A stretch of 64,000 bases of DNA from an uncultured Chloroflexia bacterium (GCA_963735495.1 CAVTLG010000003.1:32080-96079), one strand, 5' to 3'. Shown: positions 5,366 to 48,053, counted from the stretch's first letter. Program-made: numbers and translations. Notes: generated by a model not told the origin, from the letters alone.

Positions 5366-5439
5366 CGGAACCGACGGGATTCGAACCCGCGATCTTCTGC
5401 GTGACAGGCAGACATGTTAGGCCACTACACCACGGCTCC
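5366..5439 (-). tRNA. tRNA-Asp (anticodon GTC), copy 1; CCA not encoded
   Basis: The reverse complement GGAGCCGTGGTGTAGTGGCCTAACATGTCTGCCTGTCACGCAGAAGATCGCGGGTTCGAATCCCGTCGGTTCCG folds as a cloverleaf. The acceptor stem is GGAGCCG/CGGTTCC, the anticodon loop is CTGTCAC, and the T-loop is GGTTCGAATCC. Confidence 0.9.
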
Positions 5440-19655: not shown

Positions 19656-19812
19656 GGTTCCCATTTTCCGGTAACAGTGTTTTATTGCTGGGAAAACGTT
19701 GACAAATGGGGTAGGGGCGTGTCCTTGCGACCGCCCTGGGGGCCACGAGGCGAGCCACCGGGCGCACGCAAGGTGACGCCCCTACCCCATTTTCCCACAA
19801 GGATGGAGAACC
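19656..19812. repeat. MITE/REP-like element, copy C (with an internal 20-nt insertion)
   Basis: The core is GGGGTAGGGGCGTGTCC...GCGCACGCAAGGTGACGCCCCTACCCC. The right end is AAGGATGGAGAACC and the left end GGTTCCCATTTTCC is degenerate. Confidence 0.7.
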
Positions 19813-19924
19813 AATGCTGAACGATGAAACTGTCCCTATTTCTTCCTGAAGAAGCGGTGCAAATTTGCTATACTCACGACTATATGGAATCGATGAGATA
19901 TGCTTTCACAGCGGAAAGGCCACT

Positions 19925-21007
19925 ATGCCTCAACAGCAAGCACGACCAGGCTTCGCCTGGAGCAACCCTGCCTCTATTGCAGCCAACCAGCAAAGCACAA
20001 TCGCCCCTGAGCAGCGCGCCATGCTCAAGCGCCCCAATCTTGCACCTGCCATCATCATGACCCTTTTCGCCTTCATGCTCGCAGTTCCCATCTACCTGTT
20101 CGCCGCCGCGTTCGGCCACAGCGAAATCCTGTTTCTCGATGTTGTGACGTTCGGCTTCACTCTCCTCTTGTTCGTTCGCGCCTATCTGCAACGCGCGAGC
20201 CGCGTGCGAGCCGCTGATCAGGACCTGGTCAGACAAGAGCAGGGCGAGATCATCTGGCAGGGCAACAAATATATCGCACGCACCCCCACCTGCAAGCTCA
20301 CCACTGTCAACAACATCACCCTGCCTCCACCCGGCCCTTATCACTTCTATTACCTCTCCGCGAGTTCCATCCTGCTCGCCGCCGACCCTATCAAAACCTA
20401 CACTGGCATGATTGCTTATCCCGACACGCTCTCCGCCAGCGGCCTTCCCGGCAACGAACAGGCGCGCATCGCATTGCAAGAGGCGCTCTGTCACACCATC
20501 CACTTCACCCTCAACGATCTCAACAGCAACCAAATGGGCGTGATTAGCAAGGAGCAGCGTGGTAGCCTCTCGCAAAAACTACGCCGCACCTTCCTCGCCC
20601 CTCTGATCTGCATTCCCCTCGGTGTAGGCCTCCTCTTACAATCCGGGGTGATCTCTCCCACTGGCATCGGCAGCGCTTTTTCCCTTAATACGTTTCTGTT
20701 CATCGGCGGTGCTGCCCTTCTCCTCTTCGGCCTGTATCAACTTACCTTCAGCACACGTGCCCGCTGGCAAGAGATCCAACGTGCCGAAATCACTATCCTG
20801 ACAGGCCAGGTTAGCACACGCAAAATATCCTCCGGTACCGACGGTGGTGGCGACAATTTCTATTACTACATCGACTCCACCCTCATCCCCGTCTCCAAAG
20901 AGGCCTGCGACGCTCTTATGCCCAACACTCGCTACCGTCTCTACTATCTGCGCCACATGAAAACCCTTCTCAGCATCGAGCCATTAGAAGCGCCGCCTCG
21001 CTCTTAG
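19925..21007 (+). CDS. Polytopic membrane protein, hypothetical
   Basis: A GAAAGG lies upstream of the ATG at 19925. There are several TM helices. No motif was recognised. Confidence 0.55.
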   Translation: MPQQQARPGFAWSNPASIAANQQSTIAPEQRAMLKRPNLAPAIIMTLFAFMLAVPIYLFAAAFGHSEILFLDVVTFGFTLLLFVRAYLQRASRVRAADQDLVRQEQGEIIWQGNKYIARTPTCKLTTVNNITLPPPGPYHFYYLSASSILLAADPIKTYTGMIAYPDTLSASGLPGNEQARIALQEALCHTIHFTLNDLNSNQMGVISKEQRGSLSQKLRRTFLAPLICIPLGVGLLLQSGVISPTGIGSAFSLNTFLFIGGAALLLFGLYQLTFSTRARWQEIQRAEITILTGQVSTRKISSGTDGGGDNFYYYIDSTLIPVSKEACDALMPNTRYRLYYLRHMKTLLSIEPLEAPPRS

Positions 21008-21161
21008 TGGTAGTTTGTTGATCTGGGAAATCTCGCTTGATTTTCAGGTCTGTGTCGAGTATATACTCATCAGCCTGAGCTCAGATTATTGTTTTTGCTG
21101 TGTCTAAAATAAAGCGAAATCCCGAGTCAACCAACTACCGTTAGAGCGCTGTACAGAAGAG

Positions 21162-21400
21162 TTGAGCTGTGTTAAACTGTGCAAACGTACGTTCGAGCAG
21201 ATCCTGGCTCCCAGCCTGCATCCGGGACAGATCGTGATCCTGGACAATCTCTCGATTCACCTGGGACCTCATGTGAAGCAGGCCATCGCTGCCAGAGACT
21301 GCCAGCTCCTGTTTTTGCCAGCGTACTCGCCCGATTTTTTCCCCGATTGAGGGGGCCTTTTCTAAAAGGACTCTTGTCAGAGACACATCACCAGAACAGC
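21162..21400 (+). pseudogene. Remnant of an IS630-family DDE transposase (C-terminal fragment, frameshifted)
   Basis: PGQIVILDNLSIHLGPHVKQAIAARDCQLLFLPAYSPDF followed, after a frame change in a T-run, by PIEGAFSK matches the IS630 DDE C-terminal pattern (DN.S.H...LPPYSPDLNPIE..FSKLK). No N-terminal part or terminal inverted repeats were seen. Confidence 0.65.
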
Positions 21401-21456
21401 GGCTCCTCTCAAAGAGAGAAAAGAGGAGGGCAGCGACATCAGAAAGGAGATCATCC

Positions 21457-22173
21457 ATGCAGCAAGCCATTCGTCATCTGCTCATCGAGCTGTTCAGCCG
21501 GCACGGCTTACCGCTCAAGCTCAATGGGTATGAAGGAGACGAGTTCGAAGCAACAGACCATCCTGTCCTGGAAACGTCAGAAGAGCAATTCGAAGTGATC
21601 AAGGCAACGCCGTCCGGCGCATTGCAGGAACGCGCCAGGGTCGCCATCACCTCCAGCCAGCCGCACCCCGGCCCAGACAGTTCATGGCGAGATCAGAGAA
21701 GCTGGACCAGCCGTGTTGAGTTCATGGTTGAGCAGGAAATCAGACGCTTGCTGCCCACAAGGTATAGGTATTTCGATACCGAGTGCATCTATGACGACCG
21801 TGACTACGCGGGACTGCTCCTGGCCCTGGCAAAACTGACCGACGGCGAATGGCAGCCACGAAACGTGGTCTCGCGGCTCTCGGAGGATCGAAAACGGGCC
21901 TTCCTCACGTGGGACGATCCGCTCTGGCCGACCAACGCGGGCTTTCGAGAAGTGATGTTTTATCAAACTGACGATTGGGTGAGCATAGATTTCGACAATG
22001 TCATCAAGAGCCAGGGCAAGTATCTCCCTGGAACCTTCGTTTACCTGCCATCGGGAGATCAATGCAGCCGCGTCGTCTACTTGCCACATCATGCCGCGGC
22101 AGAATTGACTTCGCTGCTGAACCATTTCGCCAGACTCTGCAGAGCGGCCACAGCAGAACCAGAAGGGATCTAG
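21457..22173 (+). CDS. Hypothetical protein, first gene of the MazG-terminated operon
   Basis: A strong GAAAGGAG lies upstream of the ATG. It encodes 238 aa with no recognisable motif. Confidence 0.6.
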   Translation: MQQAIRHLLIELFSRHGLPLKLNGYEGDEFEATDHPVLETSEEQFEVIKATPSGALQERARVAITSSQPHPGPDSSWRDQRSWTSRVEFMVEQEIRRLLPTRYRYFDTECIYDDRDYAGLLLALAKLTDGEWQPRNVVSRLSEDRKRAFLTWDDPLWPTNAGFREVMFYQTDDWVSIDFDNVIKSQGKYLPGTFVYLPSGDQCSRVVYLPHHAAAELTSLLNHFARLCRAATAEPEGI

Positions 22174-22180
22174 CTTCTCC

Positions 22181-22795
22181 ATGGGGCTATGCAACTGGGA
22201 TCTCTTTGTCCAGGCTGGTGTTCTGGAACGTCTTCAGAAGGCAGCCGGGGACGATTACCTCCAATGGCATTTCGATCACAGCAACCTGCCTGCTCCCTAC
22301 ACCAGCGACGCTTCCACGCCATTTGAAGTCGAAAGCGAAGAAGGCATTTCGATCAACTGGAACGCCCTGCTTGACCAGAGGCTGGATCACCTGGAGCCGC
22401 CACCTCCCTCGCCTCCGGGCTACGAACTCTCCTCCGAGGATCACCTCCCGGCATTGAATGCGGCGCTGGAGATGCTCCTGTGGATTGAGGAAGAGAGCAG
22501 TGCCACGGTCTTTGTGCCTTTTGCGCCTTCCGATCGCACCTACGCCTTCGATCTGCTGCACCCGGATGGCAAGACTTTCTGGGTGGTTATAACCACCAAC
22601 CGCGTTCTTCTGGAGTGGCAGAGCCGATCAGCAGAGTACCGCCAGTATGCCCGGCAGCGGTTTGAGCAGATTCGTGATCCCAACGTGGGGCCGATCGATC
22701 GTGATTGGTTCGTCGCCGCCATGGTCGATCTGGCCAGCCAGTCTGTGCGCTATGGCCTGCCCGTTTTGATTAGCCTGCCAGCATCGAGGAAGTGA
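22181..22795 (+). CDS. Hypothetical protein, second gene of the MazG-terminated operon
   Basis: It starts 7 nt after the upstream stop and encodes 204 aa. Its stop overlaps the next gene's start. Confidence 0.55.
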   Translation: MGLCNWDLFVQAGVLERLQKAAGDDYLQWHFDHSNLPAPYTSDASTPFEVESEEGISINWNALLDQRLDHLEPPPPSPPGYELSSEDHLPALNAALEMLLWIEEESSATVFVPFAPSDRTYAFDLLHPDGKTFWVVITTNRVLLEWQSRSAEYRQYARQRFEQIRDPNVGPIDRDWFVAAMVDLASQSVRYGLPVLISLPASRK

Positions 22796-23124
22796 GTATG
22801 AGCAGCATGGCCCATTTACCAGAGCAGCCGACGCTCAAAGATCTCCAGAGCTACATGCAAGAGGTCTGCGCGGAACGCGGTTGGACCCACGATACCTACG
22901 CGGAAAAATTCTTACTCTTCACCGAAGAGGTCGGCGAGCTAGCCAAAGCCATCCGCCAGTCCCAGAGACTCTACGCGGAGCAGGCCAAACCCAGCTTCGC
23001 GCTCAGCGAAGAATTCGCGGACGTGCTCAGTTACCTGCTCGACCTGGCAAACCTGTTTCAGGTCGACCTGGAGCAAGCTTTCCGCGAGAAAGAGCGGCTC
23101 AACCAGACACGAACATGGGAGTAG
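22792..23124 (+). CDS. MazG-like nucleoside triphosphate pyrophosphohydrolase (single-domain)
   Basis: The metal-binding motifs typical of the all-alpha NTP-PPase fold are EEVGELAKA and EEFADVLSYLLDLAN. It starts at GTG 22792 or ATG 22798. Confidence 0.8.
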   Translation: MSMSSMAHLPEQPTLKDLQSYMQEVCAERGWTHDTYAEKFLLFTEEVGELAKAIRQSQRLYAEQAKPSFALSEEFADVLSYLLDLANLFQVDLEQAFREKERLNQTRTWE

Positions 23125-23132
23125 ATATTTCT

Positions 23133-24047
23133 TTAACTTACCTCGTAGCTTTTGAGCAAGAACTCTTTAGCACGTTCTAAATCTGCATCAGTTTTCAGAG
23201 AAATCTCTAAGCTGCCCGTTCCATAGTGACCAATCTTGCGCACATCGCGAGTAAACCCATCTTCCAATTGAATGTCATCCGGGTTTACTTTGACAAAAAG
23301 CACAATGCGCCTGGACTGGGCATGAACTTCTATGCAAGCAAAATTCTTGATGCGCCTGAAAGCAATATAGAACTTCAGCGTTTTCATCTGTACATCGTCA
23401 CCGAGTGCTATCAAAAAAGCTTTAAGCGCCTCAAAACGATCCTGAACATCAGGCGCAGCTTGCGCTAATTGTTCCATAACAGTCTTTTCATTGGATCTTC
23501 CCTGATTTTTCGCGGGCGTATCAGTAGGCGTTGCAATTGGTTGTGAGGTAACTGCACTTCCTAATTCAAGTAATAATAATTCAGTCCCATATCTCCTATA
23601 GCGAATTAATTCGATATCACGATTGATCTGTTGTACTGCGTGCTCATCGTACTTTGTAAAATCGTTGGCGATACAAAGCAAGCGAGGAAATGTCCATTCT
23701 ATTTTGTCAGCTTCTTTCTCCCCGAGCTTTTTGAGCACAAGCAGTTCAAACTCAGCCTTGTGATCCATCAGCCAGTCGAGGTAGAAGAGACCCTGGTTGA
23801 TGACGTTTTCGTTCAGCGCACGCTTGTATTCAATGATCACAGGTGAACCATTCTCATCGATGCCTAGTGTATCTATTCTTCCCCCATGTGTTTTCCCCGT
23901 GGAATATTCGGTTGCTAAGAACTGTACTCCAAGCAAGGCATCTAGATTTTTCTCAATGAGGGTTTGTAGCGTTTTTTTCAATAGCAATGGAAGTACCTTG
24001 CAATTCCTGAAAGCTTCCATTGTGTATTTGGAATAACTTGATATCAC
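23133..24047 (-). CDS. NucS/DUF91-like PD-(D/E)xK nuclease domain protein with a DUF5655-like C-terminus
   Basis: GRIDTLGIDENGSPVIIEYK is a PD-(D/E)xK signature. The C-terminal FYIAFRRIKNFACIE...LFVKV resembles DUF5655. The gene is AT-rich. Confidence 0.6.
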   Translation of the reverse strand: MISSYSKYTMEAFRNCKVLPLLLKKTLQTLIEKNLDALLGVQFLATEYSTGKTHGGRIDTLGIDENGSPVIIEYKRALNENVINQGLFYLDWLMDHKAEFELLVLKKLGEKEADKIEWTFPRLLCIANDFTKYDEHAVQQINRDIELIRYRRYGTELLLLELGSAVTSQPIATPTDTPAKNQGRSNEKTVMEQLAQAAPDVQDRFEALKAFLIALGDDVQMKTLKFYIAFRRIKNFACIEVHAQSRRIVLFVKVNPDDIQLEDGFTRDVRKIGHYGTGSLEISLKTDADLERAKEFLLKSYEVS

Positions 24048-24111
24048 TCATTCTCTATATAACTCAAAATTTACTTAAAATCTCATTCTTCTCATTTACG
24101 GCCTCTTTCCA

Positions 24112-25743
24112 CTATGTATCTGGTTGCGCATCTTTCCAATCTTCCGGTATCTGAATTTTTGCTTCTATTCCTGCATTTTCTTTAAGCAAATACAGTAGAT
24201 TGCTTCCACTCAGCAGTTCTAGTGGCTTGCCTTCGGCGAATTCAAACGAAGCTTTTCCATAGCCACTAGTCGTTACCAATATTCCTTTTGAAGCTCCTTC
24301 ATTTTGCACAGTACCATAAAGATCGCGTACTGCACTTACACCAACAGTATGCTTATAACGTTTGGCTTGGATAACCACTTTCCCACCAAAAATGGGACGC
24401 GTATCAAATGCCACACAGTCGACTCCTCCATCACGCGATGCCTGCGTTTGCCGTGTTTCCAGGCCCATTTTTTGAAATAAGTTGGTGATGAGAGACTCGA
24501 ATTCCGTAGGAGTAAGCTCCATCAAGTTAGGACGTTGATCAAGTTCCGAAAGTACATCAACCTCTTCAACAAAACGAGCATCAACCATATTGAATTCCAG
24601 GACAGGCCGTACCGGAGCCAATTCTACAGGGCTTTTAGAGACAGAAGCATTGAGGGTGATAAGACAAGTCTGTGGGTCCACCTGACTCAAATTCAGTTTC
24701 ATGAAGACATCACGACTAGTACGAATGGTAATAAGGCAGGTACGTATAGATCGTCCTGTTCCTTTATCAATACTGTCAACATAGCCATTGAAAACAATCA
24801 TATCCAAATGCTTCGTACGATCAGCACAGAATAGTTCATAGAGAGTACGTAGCGTAATCTGTGCAATGGTAGAAGAATACAGAGTTTTTCGTTGTGCCAG
24901 TGGCCGAGACGTCTCCGTAACGCTATCTTTTGACTTTATATATTTATAGATACCAATTTCAGGGATGACCTCAAATGCAGGCAAGTCATACTCAACCACC
25001 AACTGTTTAGACTCAGGCACATAGGCTAGTTTCGCTTGTTGCGGAAAACTGTCAGGATAAGCGCTTGAGGCAAGCACCATCGTAAAATACTCAACAACGG
25101 CCTGGGGAGAACCAGCGAGCCAATCACGCTGAAAGCTATCTATCTCAGCATGCTGCACGGCAACTCGCTGCTGCTCTTCTAATACTTGACGCTCAAATTG
25201 TGATCTCATTTCTGAAAGTGCCTGCTGGCGAGCAGCTTCACGGCTTACATGAATGGCCACATGAGACCTATACAGATCCTGTGCTCTCGCGACCTCTTGA
25301 GCATATTTTTCCTTCGCGCCTGGTAAGAGTTTCTGAAATCCAGTCAGTTCTGGTGGCTTATACATAGCTTGTGGCGGTGGTTCTGGTGTCGCCAGGGTTC
25401 CAGGGTTGAATATAGGCAAATTAGGAGCTTGTTTCAGGGACTGAATATCAATGTAAGTATCTAAAGAAAGAGAGCGCACTAACAGGCTTTCCAGTAATTT
25501 TACCTGCTGCTCCAACTGCTCATTCTGATAATTAACCTGAGCTATTCTTGACTCCACATAGAGTCTAGCCCGTTCTTTTTGATCAGCAGTTTTAGCTTGT
25601 TCATAAGCTTTTTTAGCCTTCTCAGCTTCCTTTGCAGCTTTCGACTGTAATTTATCCATCTCACGATAATGGGCAAGCCGCTTTTTTTCTGCATCACGTT
25701 GTGCCCGTGCAAGGGCATGTACCAGTCCACTTCTCCGTGCCAT
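24112..25743 (-). CDS. Restriction endonuclease-like protein with an N-terminal coiled coil and a C-terminal Mrr-cat nuclease domain
   Basis: The C-terminus is LTPTEFESLITNLFQKMG...DGGVDCVAF...VVIQAKRY...ILVTTSGY. The N-terminus is K/E/Q/A-rich and helical. An AAGGAGAAA lies upstream of the ATG at 25743. Confidence 0.75.
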   Translation of the reverse strand: MARRSGLVHALARAQRDAEKKRLAHYREMDKLQSKAAKEAEKAKKAYEQAKTADQKERARLYVESRIAQVNYQNEQLEQQVKLLESLLVRSLSLDTYIDIQSLKQAPNLPIFNPGTLATPEPPPQAMYKPPELTGFQKLLPGAKEKYAQEVARAQDLYRSHVAIHVSREAARQQALSEMRSQFERQVLEEQQRVAVQHAEIDSFQRDWLAGSPQAVVEYFTMVLASSAYPDSFPQQAKLAYVPESKQLVVEYDLPAFEVIPEIGIYKYIKSKDSVTETSRPLAQRKTLYSSTIAQITLRTLYELFCADRTKHLDMIVFNGYVDSIDKGTGRSIRTCLITIRTSRDVFMKLNLSQVDPQTCLITLNASVSKSPVELAPVRPVLEFNMVDARFVEEVDVLSELDQRPNLMELTPTEFESLITNLFQKMGLETRQTQASRDGGVDCVAFDTRPIFGGKVVIQAKRYKHTVGVSAVRDLYGTVQNEGASKGILVTTSGYGKASFEFAEGKPLELLSGSNLLYLLKENAGIEAKIQIPEDWKDAQPDT

Positions 25744-25927
25744 ACATTCTTTCTCCTTCATCCCTACGTAAAATAATGTGCAATTTTCTGTATGAGTACT
25801 ATTGAAGTAATACTTATATTTAATAACTCAACTATGTAGTACCCAATATTAACAGAGAATAAACAGAAATGCAAGATCGATTTTTCGATATAACATAGAC
25901 GATACGTACTAACAAGTACTTTATAGC

Positions 25928-26149
25928 CTATGCAACACAATCCTTACTCAAATTCTCAGTCTGCTCAATCAGCGTATTGACCGCCTCTTCCCGCTTCTCC
26001 TGCGGATAACCATGCTTCTTTAGCAGGCGTTTGATGATGACGCGTATGTTGGCGCGCGTACTCTCCTTGAGCGCCCAATCTATCGTTACGCTGCGACGCA
26101 CTGCCACTATCAGCTCTTGCGCAATAACTTTGAGTTGTACATCACCCAA
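25928..26149 (-). pseudogene. Orphan C-terminal fragment of a type I restriction enzyme R subunit (HsdR, DUF3387-like tail)
   Basis: IAQELIVAVRRSVTIDWALKESTRANIRVIIKRLLKKHGYPQEKREEAVNTLIEQTENL matches the conserved HsdR C-terminal tail (..TIDW..RE..RA.LR..VKR.L.KYGYPP). It encodes only 73 aa. No hsdM or hsdS is present. Confidence 0.65.
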
Positions 26150-26165
26150 AACCTCTAGCGCGCTC

Positions 26166-27164
26166 TTATATTGGCCTTTTTCCCGTCACTTCGTAGTTCT
26201 GTTCAGTGAGCTTGGACCATAAGTAATCATCATCTAAAAGCTTAAGAATGATCCATCTCTGCTTTTTGTCATAGACAAGCATCTCTTTACCTTCCACTTC
26301 TACTATCTGTAATGGTAATTTATTTTGTTCGATCACTTGTTTGATATGATCCATCGTGATTTTGCTCAGGTAAGGTTGGGTAGCAATATTCTTGAGTTTG
26401 CGCAATTTTAGGATATGTTTTTCACAATCCTGAGCAAAATCGTCAAAGTTTTGGATAGGTACCGTAGTCTTGATGGTGTTAAGCGCATCCTGAGCGACGG
26501 TACGTACCGTCTCGAAAAAACGAAATATGTTTTGAAAGTTTTCTTTATTAAAGATAAACATGACGCCACTACGGCTCATACAGTCTATTTCTCGATCAAA
26601 AAGGAGCAGTGGTTGTGTCACTTTGTCATAGCTTCCATCGTGCAGCCAGGCTGCAAAGATAGATGAGCGGTGCAGCCGTCGCATAGGGGTATAGACACGG
26701 AAGAAATACACGGGATCGCCCTCTGGAGGCTGAATTACGATGATGTAGAAATGCAGATCACCTATAAATTTCTCGTCTTTCTCAAAAATGTCCATACCAG
26801 CTAAAGACAAGAGCGGACTAATTTGCTCCAATAGAATGTTATAAGCGGATAAATCAATCCGCTCAATCTCATATGCTTCTGGTTTACTAGTGGTAGCAAA
26901 TTCGGGTAATAGTAAATCCTGTGCCTCCCACTCGCTTTTGTAGCGTTTGATTAGCTCTGCCACAATATTACTGAATTCAGCGGCTACCGTATCTGTGATC
27001 CTTAGTCGCTCGAAACGAGGAACGGCTTCAGTCTTCGCGACTGAAGCCAAACATACTGTTATTGTACATTTCTTGATGTCAAGAGTCAGAACACTATCAA
27101 AAACATCCTGGTGGCTATGCGCCAAAACTGCTGACTCATTTTTAAGAGCTGTTATTTCACCCAC
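26166..27164 (-). CDS. KwaB-like (DUF4868-like) protein of a Kiwa-type defence pair
   Basis: It is a 332-aa soluble protein directly downstream of, and overlapping, a 4-TM protein gene. The size, architecture and remembered sequence character fit DUF4868. This is not verified by search. Confidence 0.5.
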   Translation of the reverse strand: MGEITALKNESAVLAHSHQDVFDSVLTLDIKKCTITVCLASVAKTEAVPRFERLRITDTVAAEFSNIVAELIKRYKSEWEAQDLLLPEFATTSKPEAYEIERIDLSAYNILLEQISPLLSLAGMDIFEKDEKFIGDLHFYIIVIQPPEGDPVYFFRVYTPMRRLHRSSIFAAWLHDGSYDKVTQPLLLFDREIDCMSRSGVMFIFNKENFQNIFRFFETVRTVAQDALNTIKTTVPIQNFDDFAQDCEKHILKLRKLKNIATQPYLSKITMDHIKQVIEQNKLPLQIVEVEGKEMLVYDKKQRWIILKLLDDDYLWSKLTEQNYEVTGKRPI

Positions 27165-27679
27165 GGAATCTTCTCCAAAAAGACATTTCTACCCATATCA
27201 ACAATACGTACCGTCTCGCCTCGCTTAATGCGCCGACGTGTAATCAGAGAATATGACTCTGCCTCATTGTCTATAGTGATCTCATAGAGATGGTAACCAA
27301 GAATGCTAAACATAGGATTAATGCTTATCATTTCTGAGTTAATATAGACAATGCCCAACACTATCATGAAAATTAGCAGTACGGCGATCTGTTGCCAGCC
27401 GTTTAACGGAAACGCCACAAACGGGATAATATAGCTGGCAATATAGCCCATTACATCTCCATCGCGTATCTGCCGTCCAGTAATCTTCCCTTGAATTGCT
27501 GCCATGCCCGGGGCGATTTTGAAAAAGTATACATAGGTAAATATCAACCCAACAACTCCGATGACCAATGCGCTCCATGCCAACACTGGCTGCTGTGTCA
27601 AGAAAAGTATCCACATAATGAGCGCTAACGGAAAGTACGAGCTAATAAACAACATGCAGCGTACGAAAATGGTAGGCAT
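27152..27679 (-). CDS. KwaA-like four-TM membrane protein
   Basis: It encodes 175 aa with four predicted TM helices. A GAAAGGA lies upstream of the ATG. It overlaps the downstream gene by 13 nt. Confidence 0.45.
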   Translation of the reverse strand: MPTIFVRCMLFISSYFPLALIMWILFLTQQPVLAWSALVIGVVGLIFTYVYFFKIAPGMAAIQGKITGRQIRDGDVMGYIASYIIPFVAFPLNGWQQIAVLLIFMIVLGIVYINSEMISINPMFSILGYHLYEITIDNEAESYSLITRRRIKRGETVRIVDMGRNVFLEKIPWVK

Positions 27680-28343
27680 GTTTATATCCTTTCAGCTAGG
27701 GGGCAGTCTCTTTTTACTTCCAGACTGTTCTCTATTCCTATTCTTAATCTCTCCAGCAAAAGGAGTAATAAAAAGCCTCGAACCCACATTCCACGGCCTG
27801 GCATATGGCTCTTTCAGCATATTATAAAGTATCAGTGGAGAAGATATCCTGTGTAGCTGTAGATTATACAGCAAAAGCAGTTTCACCCACAACTTTTATA
27901 TTCAGCATTCATAGCCGTACAATAATGGATGAGCAGAGATATTGTCAAGTGAAAAGTTTGTATCAAAGAAGAAAAAGGACAATAGGCCCGCCTCTGTCCT
28001 ATCTCTATGGGATACTTGCTTCTATCAACCATATTAGCTATTGTTGTGACGTCTGCACAATAAAAGCGGGCATATAAATGCGGATGCAATCTTGCGATGT
28101 AACTGCATACAACGCGTAAGGGCCATTCATTCCAGCGAGGCTGAAATAGTTACGATTCTACTCAAGTGAGAAATTCTCTGAAGTCCTGAGCACCTCATAC
28201 ACTGATTGCGCCCACATGCGAACACTATCGCAATAGTTGTCCGCGCCATCCGCTATCACATTTGCGGCATACCTACAGTGAGCACAAGAGACCGGCTCAC
28301 TTTTTCCTGTTCTGGTGTCACCTCTTGACTCTCCGACATGAGA

Positions 28344-28388
28344 GAGGCAAGAGGGCAAAAACACCGGCTGTTTTTGCTCTCTTGCCTC
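28344..28388 (-). terminator. Long hairpin downstream of the beta-helix protein gene
   Basis: A 20-bp stem with one mismatch (GAGGCAAGAGGGCAAAAACA / TGTTTTTGCTCTCTTGCCTC) has a 5-nt loop. Confidence 0.4.
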
Positions 28389-28445
28389 CGAGACTCCCTG
28401 TTGCATTCATGCAGGGAAGTGGTCATTACCGCAAAGGCGCAGATT

Positions 28446-29645
28446 CTAAAAGAGGCAACTGATATCGCTGGAGGGGATGGAGTGGTTACCACCCCCATTG
28501 TTGATGGAACCCCCACAGTTGTTAGGATGGTTGTTTATCAGAGTGCTGTTGCTGATAGTCATCACATCAGTAGACCCGTTATTGATGCCGCCACCATTGC
28601 CGGAGGTGGCCGTGTTATTGGCGATGAAGCTCCCGACGACGGTCACCATGCCACTAAACTCGTTGTCGATGCCGCCGCCATTGTTGCTGGCTGTGTCGTT
28701 GGCGATGAGGCTCTTGCTTATGTTCAGCGTGCCACCGTTGAAGATGCCGCCACCGCCAAAGGTACTGTTGATGGAGGCTGTGTCGTTGGCGATAAGGCTC
28801 CTGGTAATGGTCACCGTGCCACCGGCACCACTGAAGATGCCACCGCCTAGTCCTGTGATGGCTGTGTTATTAGTGATGCTGCTCTTGCTTATGTTCAGCG
28901 TGCCTCCGACCGTATTGAAGATGCCTCCACCATTGCCGATGACCGTGTTGTTGGCGATGCTGCTCTTGCTTATGTTCTCCATACCATCATTGTTGAAGAT
29001 GCCGCCGCCGAACCTGCCGAAAGCCGTGTTATTGGTAATGCTGCTCTCGGTGATGGTCACCGTGCCACCGGACTCGCTGAAGATGCCGCCGCCTAGGCCG
29101 CCGCTGTTGTCGACGACTTGGGCCGTGTTATTGATGATGCTGCTCTTGCTTATGTTCAGCGTGCCTCCATTGTTGTCGATGCCACCACCGTTGCCGGTGG
29201 TGGCCGTGTTGTTGACGAAGGTGCTGCTGCAGATGGTCACCGTGCCTCCATTATTGGCGAGGCCACCACCATTTGTCGAAGACCCCTTGGTAATGGTGAG
29301 AGTCTTGAGCGTGAAGGTGACGCCGCTGTTCACGACGAAGACCTCTACACTGTTGTTGCCATCGAGGGTGACTTGCTGCCCGTCACCGTCCAGCGTGATG
29401 TTTGCGGCAATGGTCAGCGTCTTGGTGAGCAGAATATCTCCACTACAGCCAAAGACGATGGTTTCTCCGTTGGTCGCGGTGCTGATCGCCATTTGCAGTT
29501 GCGTCTCATCGCGACAATCGGCGATGACAACGTACCAACGCGCAGCGGCATGGACGAGGCTCTGCCGTGGGTTGACCAGCCCCAGCAGTCCGACGAGCAG
29601 GGCCAGGGCTAGCAACAAGAGCAAGTGGGTTCTTTTTCGTGTCAT
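28446..29645 (-). CDS. Secreted right-handed parallel beta-helix repeat protein (Pmp-like GGxI...NNTA repeats)
   Basis: The signal peptide is MTRKRTHLLLLLALALLVGLLG. There are more than 10 repeats of GGGIFN.GGTLNISKSSI.NNTA. ATG at 29645 has an AAAGGA upstream. Confidence 0.75.
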   Translation of the reverse strand: MTRKRTHLLLLLALALLVGLLGLVNPRQSLVHAAARWYVVIADCRDETQLQMAISTATNGETIVFGCSGDILLTKTLTIAANITLDGDGQQVTLDGNNSVEVFVVNSGVTFTLKTLTITKGSSTNGGGLANNGGTVTICSSTFVNNTATTGNGGGIDNNGGTLNISKSSIINNTAQVVDNSGGLGGGIFSESGGTVTITESSITNNTAFGRFGGGIFNNDGMENISKSSIANNTVIGNGGGIFNTVGGTLNISKSSITNNTAITGLGGGIFSGAGGTVTITRSLIANDTASINSTFGGGGIFNGGTLNISKSLIANDTASNNGGGIDNEFSGMVTVVGSFIANNTATSGNGGGINNGSTDVMTISNSTLINNHPNNCGGSINNGGGNHSIPSSDISCLF

Positions 29646-29856
29646 GGTCAACGATCCTTTCTGTTCTTGTGGATAGCCCGCACCAGAGAGCGATCTCACC
29701 GAGACACAGGGCATACTTTTTCTGCCAGTGTCTCTCTTTCTCTTCCCAGCATACCTCTCCTGCTGAACACAGAGATGTCTATCCCACGATGGATCGTTTG
29801 TCAGAAAACACAGAACGCTTTGCCAGGGATCTGGCGCAATGCCCACAGCATACAAA

Positions 29857-30327
29857 CTAGAGCAGCGCAGGATCAGTACCCGCCTCTGCCACCTGTTTCA
29901 AGAAGCTGTTCCTGGTCAGCAACAGCCCTTTCATGTAGCGCGTGAGCACCAACATCTCAGCCAACCGCCCCAGGATACCCAATGGAGCACGGAACGTAAA
30001 CTGATCGATCATCAGCGTTCCAGACCCCTGAGCAACAAACTCATGAACATGGGTTATTTCCTGAAAGGCCCCCTGCACCATTTCATCGGTAAAACGGGAT
30101 GGTCGTTCATAGGCCGTAATCTTTGAGGTCAGATGTTGCTTGATACCAAAATGCACCGCCTCCCAGGTCACAGTATCACCAAGTTTCATCATCCCCGAAG
30201 TCACACCCGCTACCGGGCGCTCATGTGTCTGCGCTACCGAGTGACGATGCAGGTCAATGCTCAGCGACAGATCGAAACAGCGCTCTATAGGAGCGTCGAT
30301 AAACGTTTCTAAGCGAATGTCAGCCAT
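29857..30327 (-). CDS. SRPBCC (START/polyketide cyclase-like) family protein
   Basis: The N-terminus MADIRLETFIDAPIERCFDLSLSIDLH is typical of the family. An AAGGAG ribosome-binding site (RBS) is present. Confidence 0.7.
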   Translation of the reverse strand: MADIRLETFIDAPIERCFDLSLSIDLHRHSVAQTHERPVAGVTSGMMKLGDTVTWEAVHFGIKQHLTSKITAYERPSRFTDEMVQGAFQEITHVHEFVAQGSGTLMIDQFTFRAPLGILGRLAEMLVLTRYMKGLLLTRNSFLKQVAEAGTDPALL

Positions 30328-30416
30328 ATCTTATCTCCTTACGCACATGAGGTAAAACAGTATAAGAGTTTCGCCCATAGACACGAACGTAAGAACTACT
30401 GAGTTTCGTTGATAAA

Positions 30417-30511
30417 CGGGTAGGGGCGTCACCTCGCGTGCGCCCTGGCGGCGGTTGCAGAGACACGCTCCTACCCTATTTCTCGACATTTCCCCGCGAG
30501 GATGGAGACCC
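30417..30511. repeat. MITE/REP-like element, copy D (left end truncated)
   Basis: The core is GGGTAGGGGCGTCACCTCGCGTGCGCCCTGG...GAGACACGCTCCTACCC and the right end is GAGGATGGAGACCCC. Confidence 0.7.
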
Positions 30512-38732: not shown

Positions 38733-38855
38733 GGCTCTCCATCCTTCCGGGTGAAAACGTTGGGAAACAGGGTAGGGGCGTCACCTTGCGTGCGCCCTGG
38801 GGGCCGGTCGCAAGGACACGCCCCTACCCTGTTTCACCCTAATGGATGGAGAGCC
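38733..38855. repeat. MITE/REP-like element, copy E (best-preserved full-length copy)
   Basis: Perfect 12-bp terminal inverted repeats are GGCTCTCCATCC / GGATGGAGAGCC. The core is GGGTAGGGGCGTCACCTTGCGTGCGCCCTGGGGGCCGGTCGCAAGGACACGCCCCTACCC. Confidence 0.8.
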
Positions 38856-39629: not shown

Positions 39630-39634
39630 AAGAG

Positions 39635-39708
39635 CGGAACCGACGGGATTCGAACCCGCGATCTTCTGCGTGACAGGCAGACATGTTAGGCCACTACACC
39701 ACGGCTCC
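39635..39708 (-). tRNA. tRNA-Asp (GTC), copy 2, identical to copy 1
   Basis: The 74 nt are identical to 5366..5439. Confidence 0.9.
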
Positions 39709-47979: not shown

Positions 47980-48053
47980 CGGAACCGACGGGATTCGAAC
48001 CCGCGATCTTCTGCGTGACAGGCAGACATGTTAGGCCACTACACCACGGCTCC
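47980..48053 (-). tRNA. tRNA-Asp (GTC), copy 3, identical to copies 1 and 2
   Basis: The 74 nt are identical to 5366..5439. Confidence 0.9.

What the first reader, a model, noticed from the sequence alone, without database searches (positions are those of the whole stretch)
23133..28100. AT-rich, single-strand-oriented island packed with nuclease and defence-type genes
All genes from 23133 to 27679 lie on the minus strand. The region is visibly AT-richer than its flanks. Hand counts of single 60-nt lines gave about 32-38% G+C inside the island and about 68% in one line of the adjacent 22.4 kb region. These are spot checks, not a computed profile. The content is a NucS-like/DUF5655 protein, a coiled-coil Mrr-cat nuclease, an HsdR tail fragment and a Kiwa-like pair. 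The compositional break plus this gene content indicates a horizontally acquired defence island with internal turnover.
Basis: partly seen in the sequence, partly recalled or inferred. Interest (0 to 1): 0.6.

Follow-up and report, generated by a model that had tools for sequence, protein, structure and literature searches.

The report
Decayed restriction-Kiwa defence islet
A 5-kb AT-rich block in a Ktedonobacteria-like genome is an ordinary mosaic of known anti-phage genes (Kiwa, an Mrr-type restriction enzyme, a frameshifted PDC-S18 candidate), and its orphan hsdR tail most likely shows that the Kiwa pair once sat inside a type I restriction operon that has since been lost.

Summary
G+C is 0.425 in 23133-28100 against 0.525 for the rest of the window. 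Change-points lie at about 23120 and 28175. All genes are on the minus strand, and island GC3 is below that of every long ORF outside. PADLOC hits coincide exactly with the block: KwaA+KwaB, mREase_IV (Mrr_cat) and PDC-S18; ten flanking proteins give none.

Two refinements:
- **hsdR tail.** The window's KwaB lies in a well-supported Ktedonobacteria clade. In five of its six other members kwaAB sits in hsdM-hsdS-kwaA-kwaB-hsdR. The 75-codon HsdR tail starts 2 nt after the kwaB stop, where hsdR sits in those relatives. The locus is best read as a decayed R-M/Kiwa composite.
- **PDC-S18.** This gene carries a +1 frameshift in an A7 run, so it is probably inactive, unless this is an assembly error.

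The Mrr and PDC-S18 families never co-occur in 80 and 4 other loci, so the island is a one-off mosaic. No integrase, tRNA or flanking repeat was found. Horizontal origin rests on composition and on plasmid-borne relatives. Verdict: real, ordinary, new member of known kinds.

The parts
23120..28175 (.). AT-rich block (G+C 0.42 against 0.56 and 0.54 on its two sides)
   Evidence: Three-segment likelihood change-point fit, log-likelihood gain 89. Support intervals are 23075-23130 and 28065-28305. Profiles.
23133..24051 (-). PDC-S18 candidate defence gene: NucS/EndoMS-like PD-(D/E)xK nuclease domain plus a DUF5655 C-terminal domain. It is interrupted by a +1 frameshift. The conserved start ATG is at 24051, a premature TGA lies at 23953-23955, and the rest of the gene continues in the next frame to the stop at 23133.
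   Evidence: PADLOC PDLC04946 E 6.5e-137 over residues 23-302; Pfam DUF5655 E 7.6e-10. The conserved N-terminus MSDIKLF...GTSIAIEK is found in another frame upstream. D59, E73 and K75 are invariant in 30 homologues. Fold: N-domain like EndoMS 5gke (E 1.7e-5); C-domain like YjbR/DUF1801.
23972..23978 (-). A7 homopolymer at the frameshift site. The homologue in L004 reads GAAAAAAC (A6) at the same codons.
   Evidence: No independent reads cover it. The same short ORF (295 aa) was called on the Logan contig of ERR12040025.
24112..25761 (-). Mrr-type predicted type IV (modification-dependent) restriction enzyme, 549 aa. It has a coiled-coil hairpin (about 3-91 and 149-215), a middle alpha/beta domain (about 240-375) and an Mrr_cat nuclease domain (414-525).
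   Evidence: Pfam Mrr_cat E 4.2e-31; PADLOC mREase_IV PDLC03663 E 4.7e-104 over the full length. D444, D448, Q465 and K467 are invariant in 23 homologues. Model. No PDB fold match for the N-terminal two thirds.
25928..26164 (-). Remnant of a type I restriction subunit gene (hsdR). Only the last ~75 codons remain, starting 2 nt after the kwaB stop codon.
   Evidence: Pfam T1RH-like_C positions 260-328 of 329, E 2.9e-23. 40% identity over 75 aa to residues 1046-1120 of the 1125-residue HsdR of L035, E 1e-17. An in-frame stop lies 13 codons upstream of the TTG. GC3 is 0.58, unlike its neighbours.
26166..27164 (-). kwaB (Kiwa effector, DUF4868), 332 aa, intact
   Evidence: Pfam KwaB E 9.3e-24; PADLOC KwaB E 2e-26. 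PDB Kiwa KwaB 9mrx E 5e-8. 61-71% identical to KwaB of L007, L009 and L011.
27152..27679 (-). kwaA (Kiwa membrane component), 175 aa, overlapping kwaB by 13 nt
   Evidence: PADLOC KwaA E 2.2e-23; NCBIfam KwaA E 3.5e-23. PDB KwaA 9mrg E 1.5e-9. Hydrophobic segments at about 3-29, 29-57 and 88-121.
27680..28175 (-). AT-rich non-coding leader upstream of kwaA. No gene remnant was detected.
   Evidence: No blastx, tblastn or blastn match to HsdM, HsdS, HsdR or any ORF of 82 related loci. No Rfam family. One promoter-like site on the minus strand at 27948-27919 (TTGACA, 18 nt, TATTGT), but the number of such sites equals that in shuffles.

Best explanation
The block is a small mosaic defence islet, foreign in composition to its surroundings. 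All units lie on one strand.

1. Kiwa pair. kwaA and kwaB are intact and overlap by 13 nt. By homology to the E. coli system, membrane KwaA senses phage attachment or DNA entry, and KwaB then binds the incoming DNA and stalls its replication and late transcription.

2. Mrr-type nuclease. It has no partner methyltransferase and is predicted to cut modified foreign DNA. Its N-terminal coiled coil and an unassigned middle domain probably serve assembly and target recognition.

3. PDC-S18. This is a NucS/Shedu-like PD-(D/E)xK nuclease joined to a DUF5655 domain. The family is an untested defence candidate. Here it is broken by a one-base insertion in an A run, so it is probably silent.

4. hsdR remnant. 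Seventy-five codons of an hsdR 3' end remain.

History (inferred). The Kiwa pair belongs to a Ktedonobacteria lineage that normally rides inside a type I restriction-modification operon, in the known cargo slot between hsdS and hsdR. In this genome the restriction genes have been deleted, leaving only the hsdR tail directly after kwaB. The Mrr and PDC-S18 genes were added independently next to it.

Shown: composition break, gene identities, the tail's position, clade membership, the frameshift in the assembly.
Inferred: the order of events, horizontal origin, and all biochemical activities.
For: Composition.

Identities.

Defence hits confined to the block.

Embedded relatives:
- The three closest KwaB relatives (71, 68 and 61% identity) all lie in hsdM-hsdS-kwaA-kwaB-hsdR. 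Full-length hsdR starts within about 30 nt of kwaB, or after one phosphatase-like gene.
- In the KwaB tree the window sits in a clade of 7 with 100/99 support. Five of the six others are embedded.
- Among the KwaB loci fetched (70 from a scan of species-representative genomes plus 6 looked up directly), 11 distinct loci have hsdM/hsdS directly upstream on the same strand, and 7 have hsdR directly downstream.

The tail:
- HsdR homology begins 2 nt after the kwaB stop and corresponds to residues 1046-1120 of 1125 of an HsdR that itself follows kwaB in L035.
- Its GC3 of 0.58 resembles hsdR genes (0.63-0.77) and not kwaAB (0.40-0.50) in relatives.
- DNA homology to relatives covers only 27699-26160, that is kwaAB alone.

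Mosaic:
- 0 of 80 Mrr-family loci carry PDC-S18 or Kiwa.
- PDC-S18 homologues stand alone in 4 loci.

Mobility of the families:
- Plasmid-borne relatives in unrelated phyla.
- kwaAB is AT-richer than its flanks in 61 of 62 loci.

Frameshift.

Literature:
- Embedding of defence genes in type I R-M, and the definition of PDCs by embedding: bioRxiv 10.1101/2024.01.29.577857.
- The hsdS-hsdR slot as a probable recombination hotspot: PMC12255303.
- Kiwa mechanism: bioRxiv 10.1101/2023.02.26.530102.
Against: - The tail is only 22-25% identical to the HsdR C-termini of the window's own KwaB clade, which are 61-66% identical to each other. The lost operon was therefore of a different hsdR family from those of the nearest Kiwa relatives. 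This requires that the cassette moved between operons, or that the operon genes were exchanged.
- No trace of hsdM or hsdS remains upstream of kwaA.
- The deletion breakpoint lies within a nucleotide or two of the kwaB stop. That is an unlikely spot for a random deletion, although only breakpoints that spare kwaB could survive selection for Kiwa.
- No mobility gene, tRNA or direct repeat marks the edges.
- No related genome with an empty site was available.
- The frameshift lies in a homopolymer and has no independent read support.
Confidence: 0.7

Rival explanations
1. The Kiwa pair inserted into a resident hsdR gene of this genome and displaced most of it. On this view the tail marks a destroyed native type I R-M locus, not a lost carrier operon.
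For: - The junction lies exactly at the 3' border of the kwaAB DNA shared with relatives (26160-26179), which looks like a cassette edge.
- The tail's G+C (0.50, GC3 0.58) is close to the host's.
- The tail's hsdR family differs from that of the nearest Kiwa relatives.
Against: - No upstream part of hsdR, and no hsdM or hsdS, is found on the other side of the pair or anywhere in the 64 kb.
- hsdR sits in just this position after kwaB in seven other loci, including one whose HsdR is the tail's best match.
- hsdR genes of embedded operons are themselves host-like in G+C, so the tail's composition does not discriminate.
Confidence: 0.2
2. The block is not a recent acquisition. These defence genes keep a low G+C wherever they reside, so the compositional break says little about when or whether the block arrived by transfer.
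For: - kwaAB is AT-richer than its flanks in 61 of 62 genomes.
- hsdS and kwaAB are AT-rich even inside operons whose hsdM and hsdR match the host.
- There are no mobility genes or att-like repeats.
Against: - Non-embedded Kiwa pairs in other Chloroflexota differ from their flanks by only 0.01-0.05, so amelioration does occur.
- The non-coding leader 27680-28175 is as AT-rich as the genes, which coding constraints cannot explain.
- Family members sit on plasmids of distant phyla.
Confidence: 0.15
3. The PDC-S18 frameshift is an assembly or sequencing error in a homopolymer, or a reversible phase-variable tract. On this view the gene is intact, or switchable, in the living population.
For: - The lesion is a single extra A in an A7 run, a classic site for both long-read errors and slipped-strand switching.
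- The rest of the 306-codon gene is free of stops and 63-77% identical to homologues.
Against: - A separate assembly of run ERR12040025 also calls the shortened 295-aa ORF, though it may rest on the same reads.
- Only 8 homopolymers of 7 or more occur in the whole window, so there is no sign of general homopolymer noise breaking genes.
Confidence: 0.35
4. The adjacent Mrr-type and PDC-S18 genes form a dedicated two-gene restriction-like module.
For: They lie 64 nt apart on the same strand.
Against: - None of 80 loci with close Mrr-family relatives (41-87% identity) has a PDC-S18 gene within 6 kb.
- PDC-S18 homologues in L001, L003, L004 and L005 have no Mrr neighbour.
- PADLOC treats each as a single-gene system.
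Confidence: 0.03

Closest known systems
Kiwa (KwaA/KwaB) of E. coli O55:H7 and ECOR strains; structures 9mrg, 9mrx, 9o0i; bioRxiv 10.1101/2023.02.26.530102
   Same: - A two-gene operon of a small multi-pass membrane protein and a DUF4868 protein.
- Both proteins hit the PADLOC, Pfam and NCBIfam models and the solved chains.
   Different: - It is distant in sequence. NCBIfam scores of 71 and 82 fall below the equivalog cut-offs of 200 and 100.
- It belongs to a Ktedonobacteria clade that is normally embedded in a type I R-M operon.
- Its activity is untested.
Defence genes embedded between hsdS and hsdR of type I R-M operons: the EPEC rptR-hsdM-hsdS-darT2-darG2-hsdR island (PMC12255303), PrrC, and the 'guilt-by-embedding' survey (bioRxiv 10.1101/2024.01.29.577857)
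   Same: - Relatives of this Kiwa pair occupy the same slot in the same orientation.
- The window keeps the hsdR end right after the cargo.
   Different: - Here the carrier operon is gone: no hsdM, no hsdS, and only about 75 codons of hsdR. This is a decayed derivative, not a working composite.
- Kiwa is not mentioned in the main text of the survey.
E. coli K-12 immigration control region (mcrBC, hsdSMR, mrr). This comparison is from my own knowledge and was not tested here.
   Same: A type I R-M locus (here a remnant) lies next to an Mrr-type modification-dependent nuclease, in a variable region of foreign composition.
   Different: - The Mrr protein here has a 410-residue N-terminal coiled-coil and unknown domain in place of the E. 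coli Mrr N-terminal winged-helix domain.
- Additional Kiwa and PDC-S18 genes are present.
- The host phylum is different.
PADLOC PDC-S18 (single-gene phage defence candidate; DUF5655 proteins)
   Same: - Near full-length match to model PDLC04946.
- The PD-(D/E)xK residues D59, E73 and K75 are conserved.
   Different: - It is frameshifted at codon 27 in this assembly.
- The family has no experimental validation. PDCs are described as untested candidates.

Membership tests
Kiwa defence system | KwaA: a small multi-pass membrane protein matching KwaA models | tested here: met
   PADLOC KwaA, 14 models, best E 2.2e-23. NCBIfam KwaA E 3.5e-23, but 82 bits is below the equivalog cut-off of 100. PDB 9mrg E 1.5e-9. 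Hydrophobic segments.
Kiwa defence system | KwaB: a DUF4868 protein encoded directly downstream in the same operon | tested here: met
   Pfam KwaB E 9.3e-24 (84.9 bits against a cut-off of 26.3). PADLOC E 2e-26. PDB 9mrx E 5.3e-8. 13-nt overlap with kwaA.
Kiwa defence system | Protection against phage or conjugation | not testable with these tools
   Needs cloning and plaque assays.
Type IV (modification-dependent) restriction enzyme, Mrr family | Mrr_cat PD-(D/E)xK nuclease domain with catalytic residues | tested here: met
   Pfam Mrr_cat E 4.2e-31. D444, D448, Q465 and K467 are invariant in 23 homologues.
Type IV (modification-dependent) restriction enzyme, Mrr family | Solitary nuclease without a cognate methyltransferase | tested here: met
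   No methyltransferase domain in any island or flanking ORF scanned. No HsdM-like match in the window.
Type IV (modification-dependent) restriction enzyme, Mrr family | Cleavage dependent on modified DNA | not testable with these tools
   The PADLOC label mREase_IV (E 4.7e-104) is a prediction. The N-terminal domains have no fold match.
PADLOC PDC-S18 | Full-length match to a PDC-S18 model | tested here: met
   PDLC04946 E 6.5e-137, protein residues 23-302 on model positions 41-321 of 365.
PADLOC PDC-S18 | Uninterrupted reading frame | tested here: not met
   +1 frameshift in the A7 run at 23972-23978, with a premature TGA at 23953-23955. It could be an assembly error.
Type I restriction-modification system | hsdM, hsdS and full-length hsdR all present | tested here: not met
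   Only about 75 C-terminal codons of hsdR remain. No HsdM or HsdS match in the window.
Integrative genomic island | Integrase or recombinase, tRNA target, flanking direct repeats | tested here: not met
   No tRNA within 11 kb. No credible edge repeats. No recombinase domain in the ORFs scanned.
Defence island (cluster of defence systems) | Two or more independent defence systems adjacent | tested here: met
   Kiwa, mREase_IV and PDC-S18 lie within 4.6 kb. A TIR-STAND and a CHAT-TIR gene lie 6-10 kb away.

The most novel reading that the evidence does not exclude
The R-M-embedded Kiwa lineage is a functional partner of type I restriction, not just a passenger. For example, KwaB could hold incoming DNA at the membrane for the Hsd complex, or share DNA-mimic inhibitors with it, as Kiwa does with RecBCD. 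On this view the window is a natural uncoupling, in which the Kiwa pair has been kept intact after loss of hsdM, hsdS and hsdR, showing that the pair can be retained on its own. A smaller novel reading is that the A7 tract makes PDC-S18 a phase-variable defence gene.
Probability: 0.12. Interest if true: 0.55.

Novelty: new member of a known kind. Interest (0 to 1): 0.27.

Why it matters
**Annotation.** It gives a clean example of how defence loci decay. Cargo that normally rides in the hsdS-hsdR slot of a type I restriction operon can outlive its carrier, leaving a 75-codon scar that records the history.

**Biology.** It adds Ktedonobacteria to the hosts of R-M-embedded Kiwa. It also gives a natural Kiwa-only derivative, which bears on whether embedded Kiwa needs its restriction partner.

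**Caution for pipelines.** The PDC-S18 hit would be counted as a defence system by automatic tools although its frame is broken in this assembly.

None of this changes current understanding of these systems.

Tried and rejected
**Empty-site and synteny test**
- A genome-contig scan with the flanking TPP enzyme found nothing.
- The flanking 204-aa protein is not on record elsewhere.
- Homologues of the flanking membrane protein (19865-21007) are at most 54% identical and lie in unrelated neighbourhoods.

**Sequencing runs**
- One soil run holds identical short contigs from both island and flanks, so it is the same strain.
- Runs of a related organism hold 85-95% identical pieces of two flank genes and none of the island. 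The contigs are too short to prove an empty site.
- A contig joint 19725 to 30378 is explained by MITE copies at 19692-19787 and 30418-30482.

**Remnants of hsdM, hsdS or the hsdR 5' part**
- None was found by tblastn, blastx or blastn in 27660-28460, 25740-25940 or 24030-24130.

**Other searches that led nowhere or gave a negative result**
- tRNA, direct and inverted repeats at the edges: nothing credible.
- Rfam: nothing.
- Promoter and terminator scan: counts no higher than in shuffles.
- Two-gene Mrr plus PDC-S18 module: rejected.
- Fold search of the Mrr protein: no match with E below 0.07 for the coiled-coil or middle domains, and the nuclease domain was modelled at low confidence.
- Independent reads over the frameshift: none.
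- Codon-usage JS divergence: not discriminating. GC3 is.


Full report
**Observation**

A sliding profile shows G+C near 0.42 from about 23000 to 28250 and 0.53-0.59 on both sides.
- The stated interval has G+C 0.425, against 0.525 for the rest of the window. It is the lowest of all 5-kb windows in the 64 kb.
- A three-segment likelihood fit places the boundaries at 23120 (support 23075-23130) and 28175 (28065-28305), with a log-likelihood gain of 89.
- Third-position G+C of the island genes (0.36-0.51) lies at or below the bottom of the range of long ORFs outside (0.48-0.73).
- The left edge falls in the 8 nt between the convergent stops of the MazG-like gene (23124) and the DUF5655 gene (23133).
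- The right edge falls in non-coding DNA about 500 nt upstream of kwaA. It lies before a 20-bp hairpin (28344-28388) just downstream of the stop of the neighbouring repeat-protein gene, probably its terminator.

**Content**

All recognisable genes are on the minus strand. Reading 5' to 3' on that strand:
- kwaA, 27679-27152.
- kwaB, 27164-26166, overlapping kwaA by 13 nt.
- A 73-aa ORF that matches only the last 69 of 329 positions of the HsdR C-terminal domain.
- After a 167-nt gap, a 549-aa Mrr_cat protein, which is PADLOC mREase_IV over its full length (E 4.7e-104).
- After a 64-nt gap, a DUF5655 protein, which is PADLOC PDC-S18 (E 6.5e-137).

KwaA and KwaB also match the solved Kiwa chains and the NCBIfam models, though below the equivalog cut-offs. 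None of ten flanking proteins hits PADLOC. The recognised defence content and the AT-rich block therefore coincide. Further conflict-type genes of host-like composition lie nearby: TIR-STAND-TPR, CHAT-TIR, EACC1 and ADP-ribosylglycohydrolase.

**The hsdR tail and the origin of the Kiwa pair**

The three closest KwaB relatives (71, 68 and 61% identity) all sit in one arrangement: hsdM-hsdS-kwaA-kwaB-hsdR. A full-length hsdR of 1053-1083 codons begins within about 30 nt of kwaB, or after one phosphatase-like gene.

A scan of species-representative genomes with a KwaB alignment returned 70 loci. Together with six loci looked up directly:
- 11 distinct loci have hsdM/hsdS directly upstream on the same strand.
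- 7 have hsdR directly downstream.
- The embedded loci come from Chloroflexota, Nitrospirota, Hydrogenedentota, Calditrichota and Pseudomonadota.
- The remaining pairs sit next to housekeeping or other genes.

In a maximum-likelihood KwaB tree the window falls in a clade of seven Ktedonobacteria sequences (support 100/99). Five of the other six are embedded. Nucleotide homology between the window and these relatives covers only 27699-26160. That is kwaAB with 20 nt upstream and 6 nt downstream.

HsdR-like sequence begins 2 nt after the kwaB stop. It aligns at 40% identity over 75 residues (E 1e-17) with residues 1046-1120 of the 1125-residue HsdR of L035, which itself follows kwaB in a Hydrogenedentota genome.

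The simplest reading is that this Kiwa pair descends from one carried in the hsdS-hsdR slot of a type I operon. About 1045 codons of hsdR, together with hsdM and hsdS, have since been lost.

Two facts complicate this:
- The tail is only 22-25% identical to the HsdR C-termini of its own KwaB clade, which are 61-66% identical to each other. The carrier operon was therefore of another family.
- The breakpoint abuts the cassette edge very closely.

The alternative, insertion of the pair into a resident hsdR, cannot be excluded. It lacks the expected upstream hsdR part.

The general phenomenon is published:
- Defence genes are often nested in type I R-M, BREX and DISARM, and the PDC candidates were defined that way (bioRxiv 10.1101/2024.01.29.577857).
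- The hsdS-hsdR slot has been called a likely recombination hotspot (PMC12255303).
- Earlier notes of this scan report Kiwa in this slot in other genomes, which agrees with my own tally.

**Composition of the cassette elsewhere**
- In embedded relatives, kwaAB (0.39-0.45) and hsdS (0.43-0.47) are AT-rich, while hsdM and hsdR (0.53-0.59) match the host.
- Across 62 loci kwaAB is AT-richer than its flanks in 61, with a median difference of -0.06. The difference is -0.04 to -0.17 in embedded loci and -0.01 to -0.05 in several non-embedded Chloroflexota loci.
- The window's difference (about -0.10) is typical of the embedded, apparently mobile lineage.
- The window's hsdR tail has GC3 0.58, like hsdR genes and unlike its neighbours.

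**The two nuclease genes**

*Mrr-type protein.* It has many close relatives in soil metagenomes (80 loci, 41-87% identity).
- None has a PDC-S18 or Kiwa gene within 6 kb. Four have hsdM directly upstream.
- The predicted structure shows a long coiled-coil hairpin, a middle alpha/beta domain and the nuclease domain.
- No solved structure resembles the first two.
- Catalytic-type residues are invariant in the alignment.

*PDC-S18.* The family is very large and conserved.
- Homologues stand alone in four inspected loci.
- They occur on Staphylococcus and Cupriavidus plasmids at about 70% nucleotide identity.
- The model has an EndoMS/NucS-like and Shedu-like nuclease domain and a YjbR/DUF1801-like C-terminal domain.
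- D59, E73 and K75 are invariant.

*The frameshift.* In the window the conserved N-terminus (MSDIKLF...GTSIAIEK) is encoded from ATG 24051 in one frame. The rest of the protein is in the next frame.
- The switch lies at an A7 run (23972-23978), where a homologue has A6.
- The first frame ends at TGA 23953-23955.
- This may be a true inactivating mutation, a phase-variable tract or a homopolymer error. No independent reads cover it.

**Horizontal origin**

Evidence for it:
- The composition break, which includes non-coding DNA.
- The behaviour of the same cassettes in other genomes.
- Plasmid carriage of two of the families.

Evidence missing:
- There is no integrase, tRNA or edge repeat.
- There is no empty site in a relative, for three reasons. 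One scan found nothing. The nearest homologues of a flank gene are too distant to share synteny.
- Short contigs of a related organism carry pieces of two flank genes but none of the island, which is compatible with absence but weak.

**Verdict**

The finding is real and correctly interpreted in outline. It is a small, compositionally foreign defence islet that shows turnover. It is built entirely from known kinds of parts.

The added value of this analysis is threefold:
- The reading of the hsdR scar as the remains of a carrier operon.
- The demonstration that the gene combination is a one-off mosaic.
- The detection of the broken PDC-S18 frame.

Noticed in passing
window 5366-5439, 39634-39708, 47980-48053 (all minus): Three tRNA-Asp(GTC) genes lie within 43 kb, each in or near a low-G+C patch.
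   Followed up: no
window 19692-19787 and 30418-30482: Copies of a MITE/REP-like element (reference copy 38733-38855) bracket a 10.6-kb segment that contains the MazG operon, the island and two further genes. A metagenome contig that seems to skip 19725 to 30378 is explained by these repeats.
   Followed up: partly
L007 8111-8632; L009 11012-11518; L013 8446-9060; L017 4523-5092: A dual-specificity-phosphatase-like gene (Pfam DSPc) travels with the hsdMS-kwaAB-hsdR composites, sometimes before kwaA and sometimes after kwaB. It is absent from the window.
   Followed up: no
L043 10937-11836: In an Ignavibacteria genome kwaB is followed at once by a 300-aa Mrr_cat protein related to the window's (E 1.2e-10). 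Kiwa next to an Mrr-type nuclease therefore occurs at least once elsewhere.
   Followed up: partly
L014 10933-11883; L020 11018-12055; L037 10902-11909: A DUF1848 gene directly follows kwaB in three Chloroflexota genomes (E 5e-88 to 8e-93). It is a possible recurrent third gene of non-embedded Kiwa in this group.
   Followed up: no
L036 10893-15574; L040 11025-12785: In a gammaproteobacterial and a Calditrichota genome, hsdM-hsdS-kwaAB is followed by further defence-type genes (TIR, AAA_15/AAA_21 with DUF3696) in place of hsdR. The slot can therefore hold several cargoes.
   Followed up: no
L103 289-3710; L104 343-3764; L108 2594-7728; L138 3-2303: Four of 80 Mrr-family loci have hsdM (and hsdS in L108) about 150 nt upstream on the same strand. 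This Mrr family too is sometimes attached to type I R-M operons.
   Followed up: no
window 24112-25761, residues about 240-375: The middle alpha/beta domain of the Mrr-type protein is confidently modelled (pLDDT 85-95) but has no Foldseek match in the PDB.
   Followed up: partly
window 28446-29855 (minus): The neighbouring secreted-looking protein is built of about 28-residue (81-84 nt) repeats of the type ...GGGI.N..GT..I..S...NNTA. It has no Pfam, NCBIfam or PADLOC hit, and its GC3 (0.73-0.74) is the highest in the window.
   Followed up: no
window 23600-24000 against plasmids NZ_CP054436.1, NZ_CP090917.1, NZ_CP038637.1: The DUF5655/PDC-S18 gene keeps about 68-71% nucleotide identity over 315-385 nt between this Chloroflexota-like genome and Staphylococcus and Cupriavidus plasmids. 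That is unusually high conservation across phyla.
   Followed up: no
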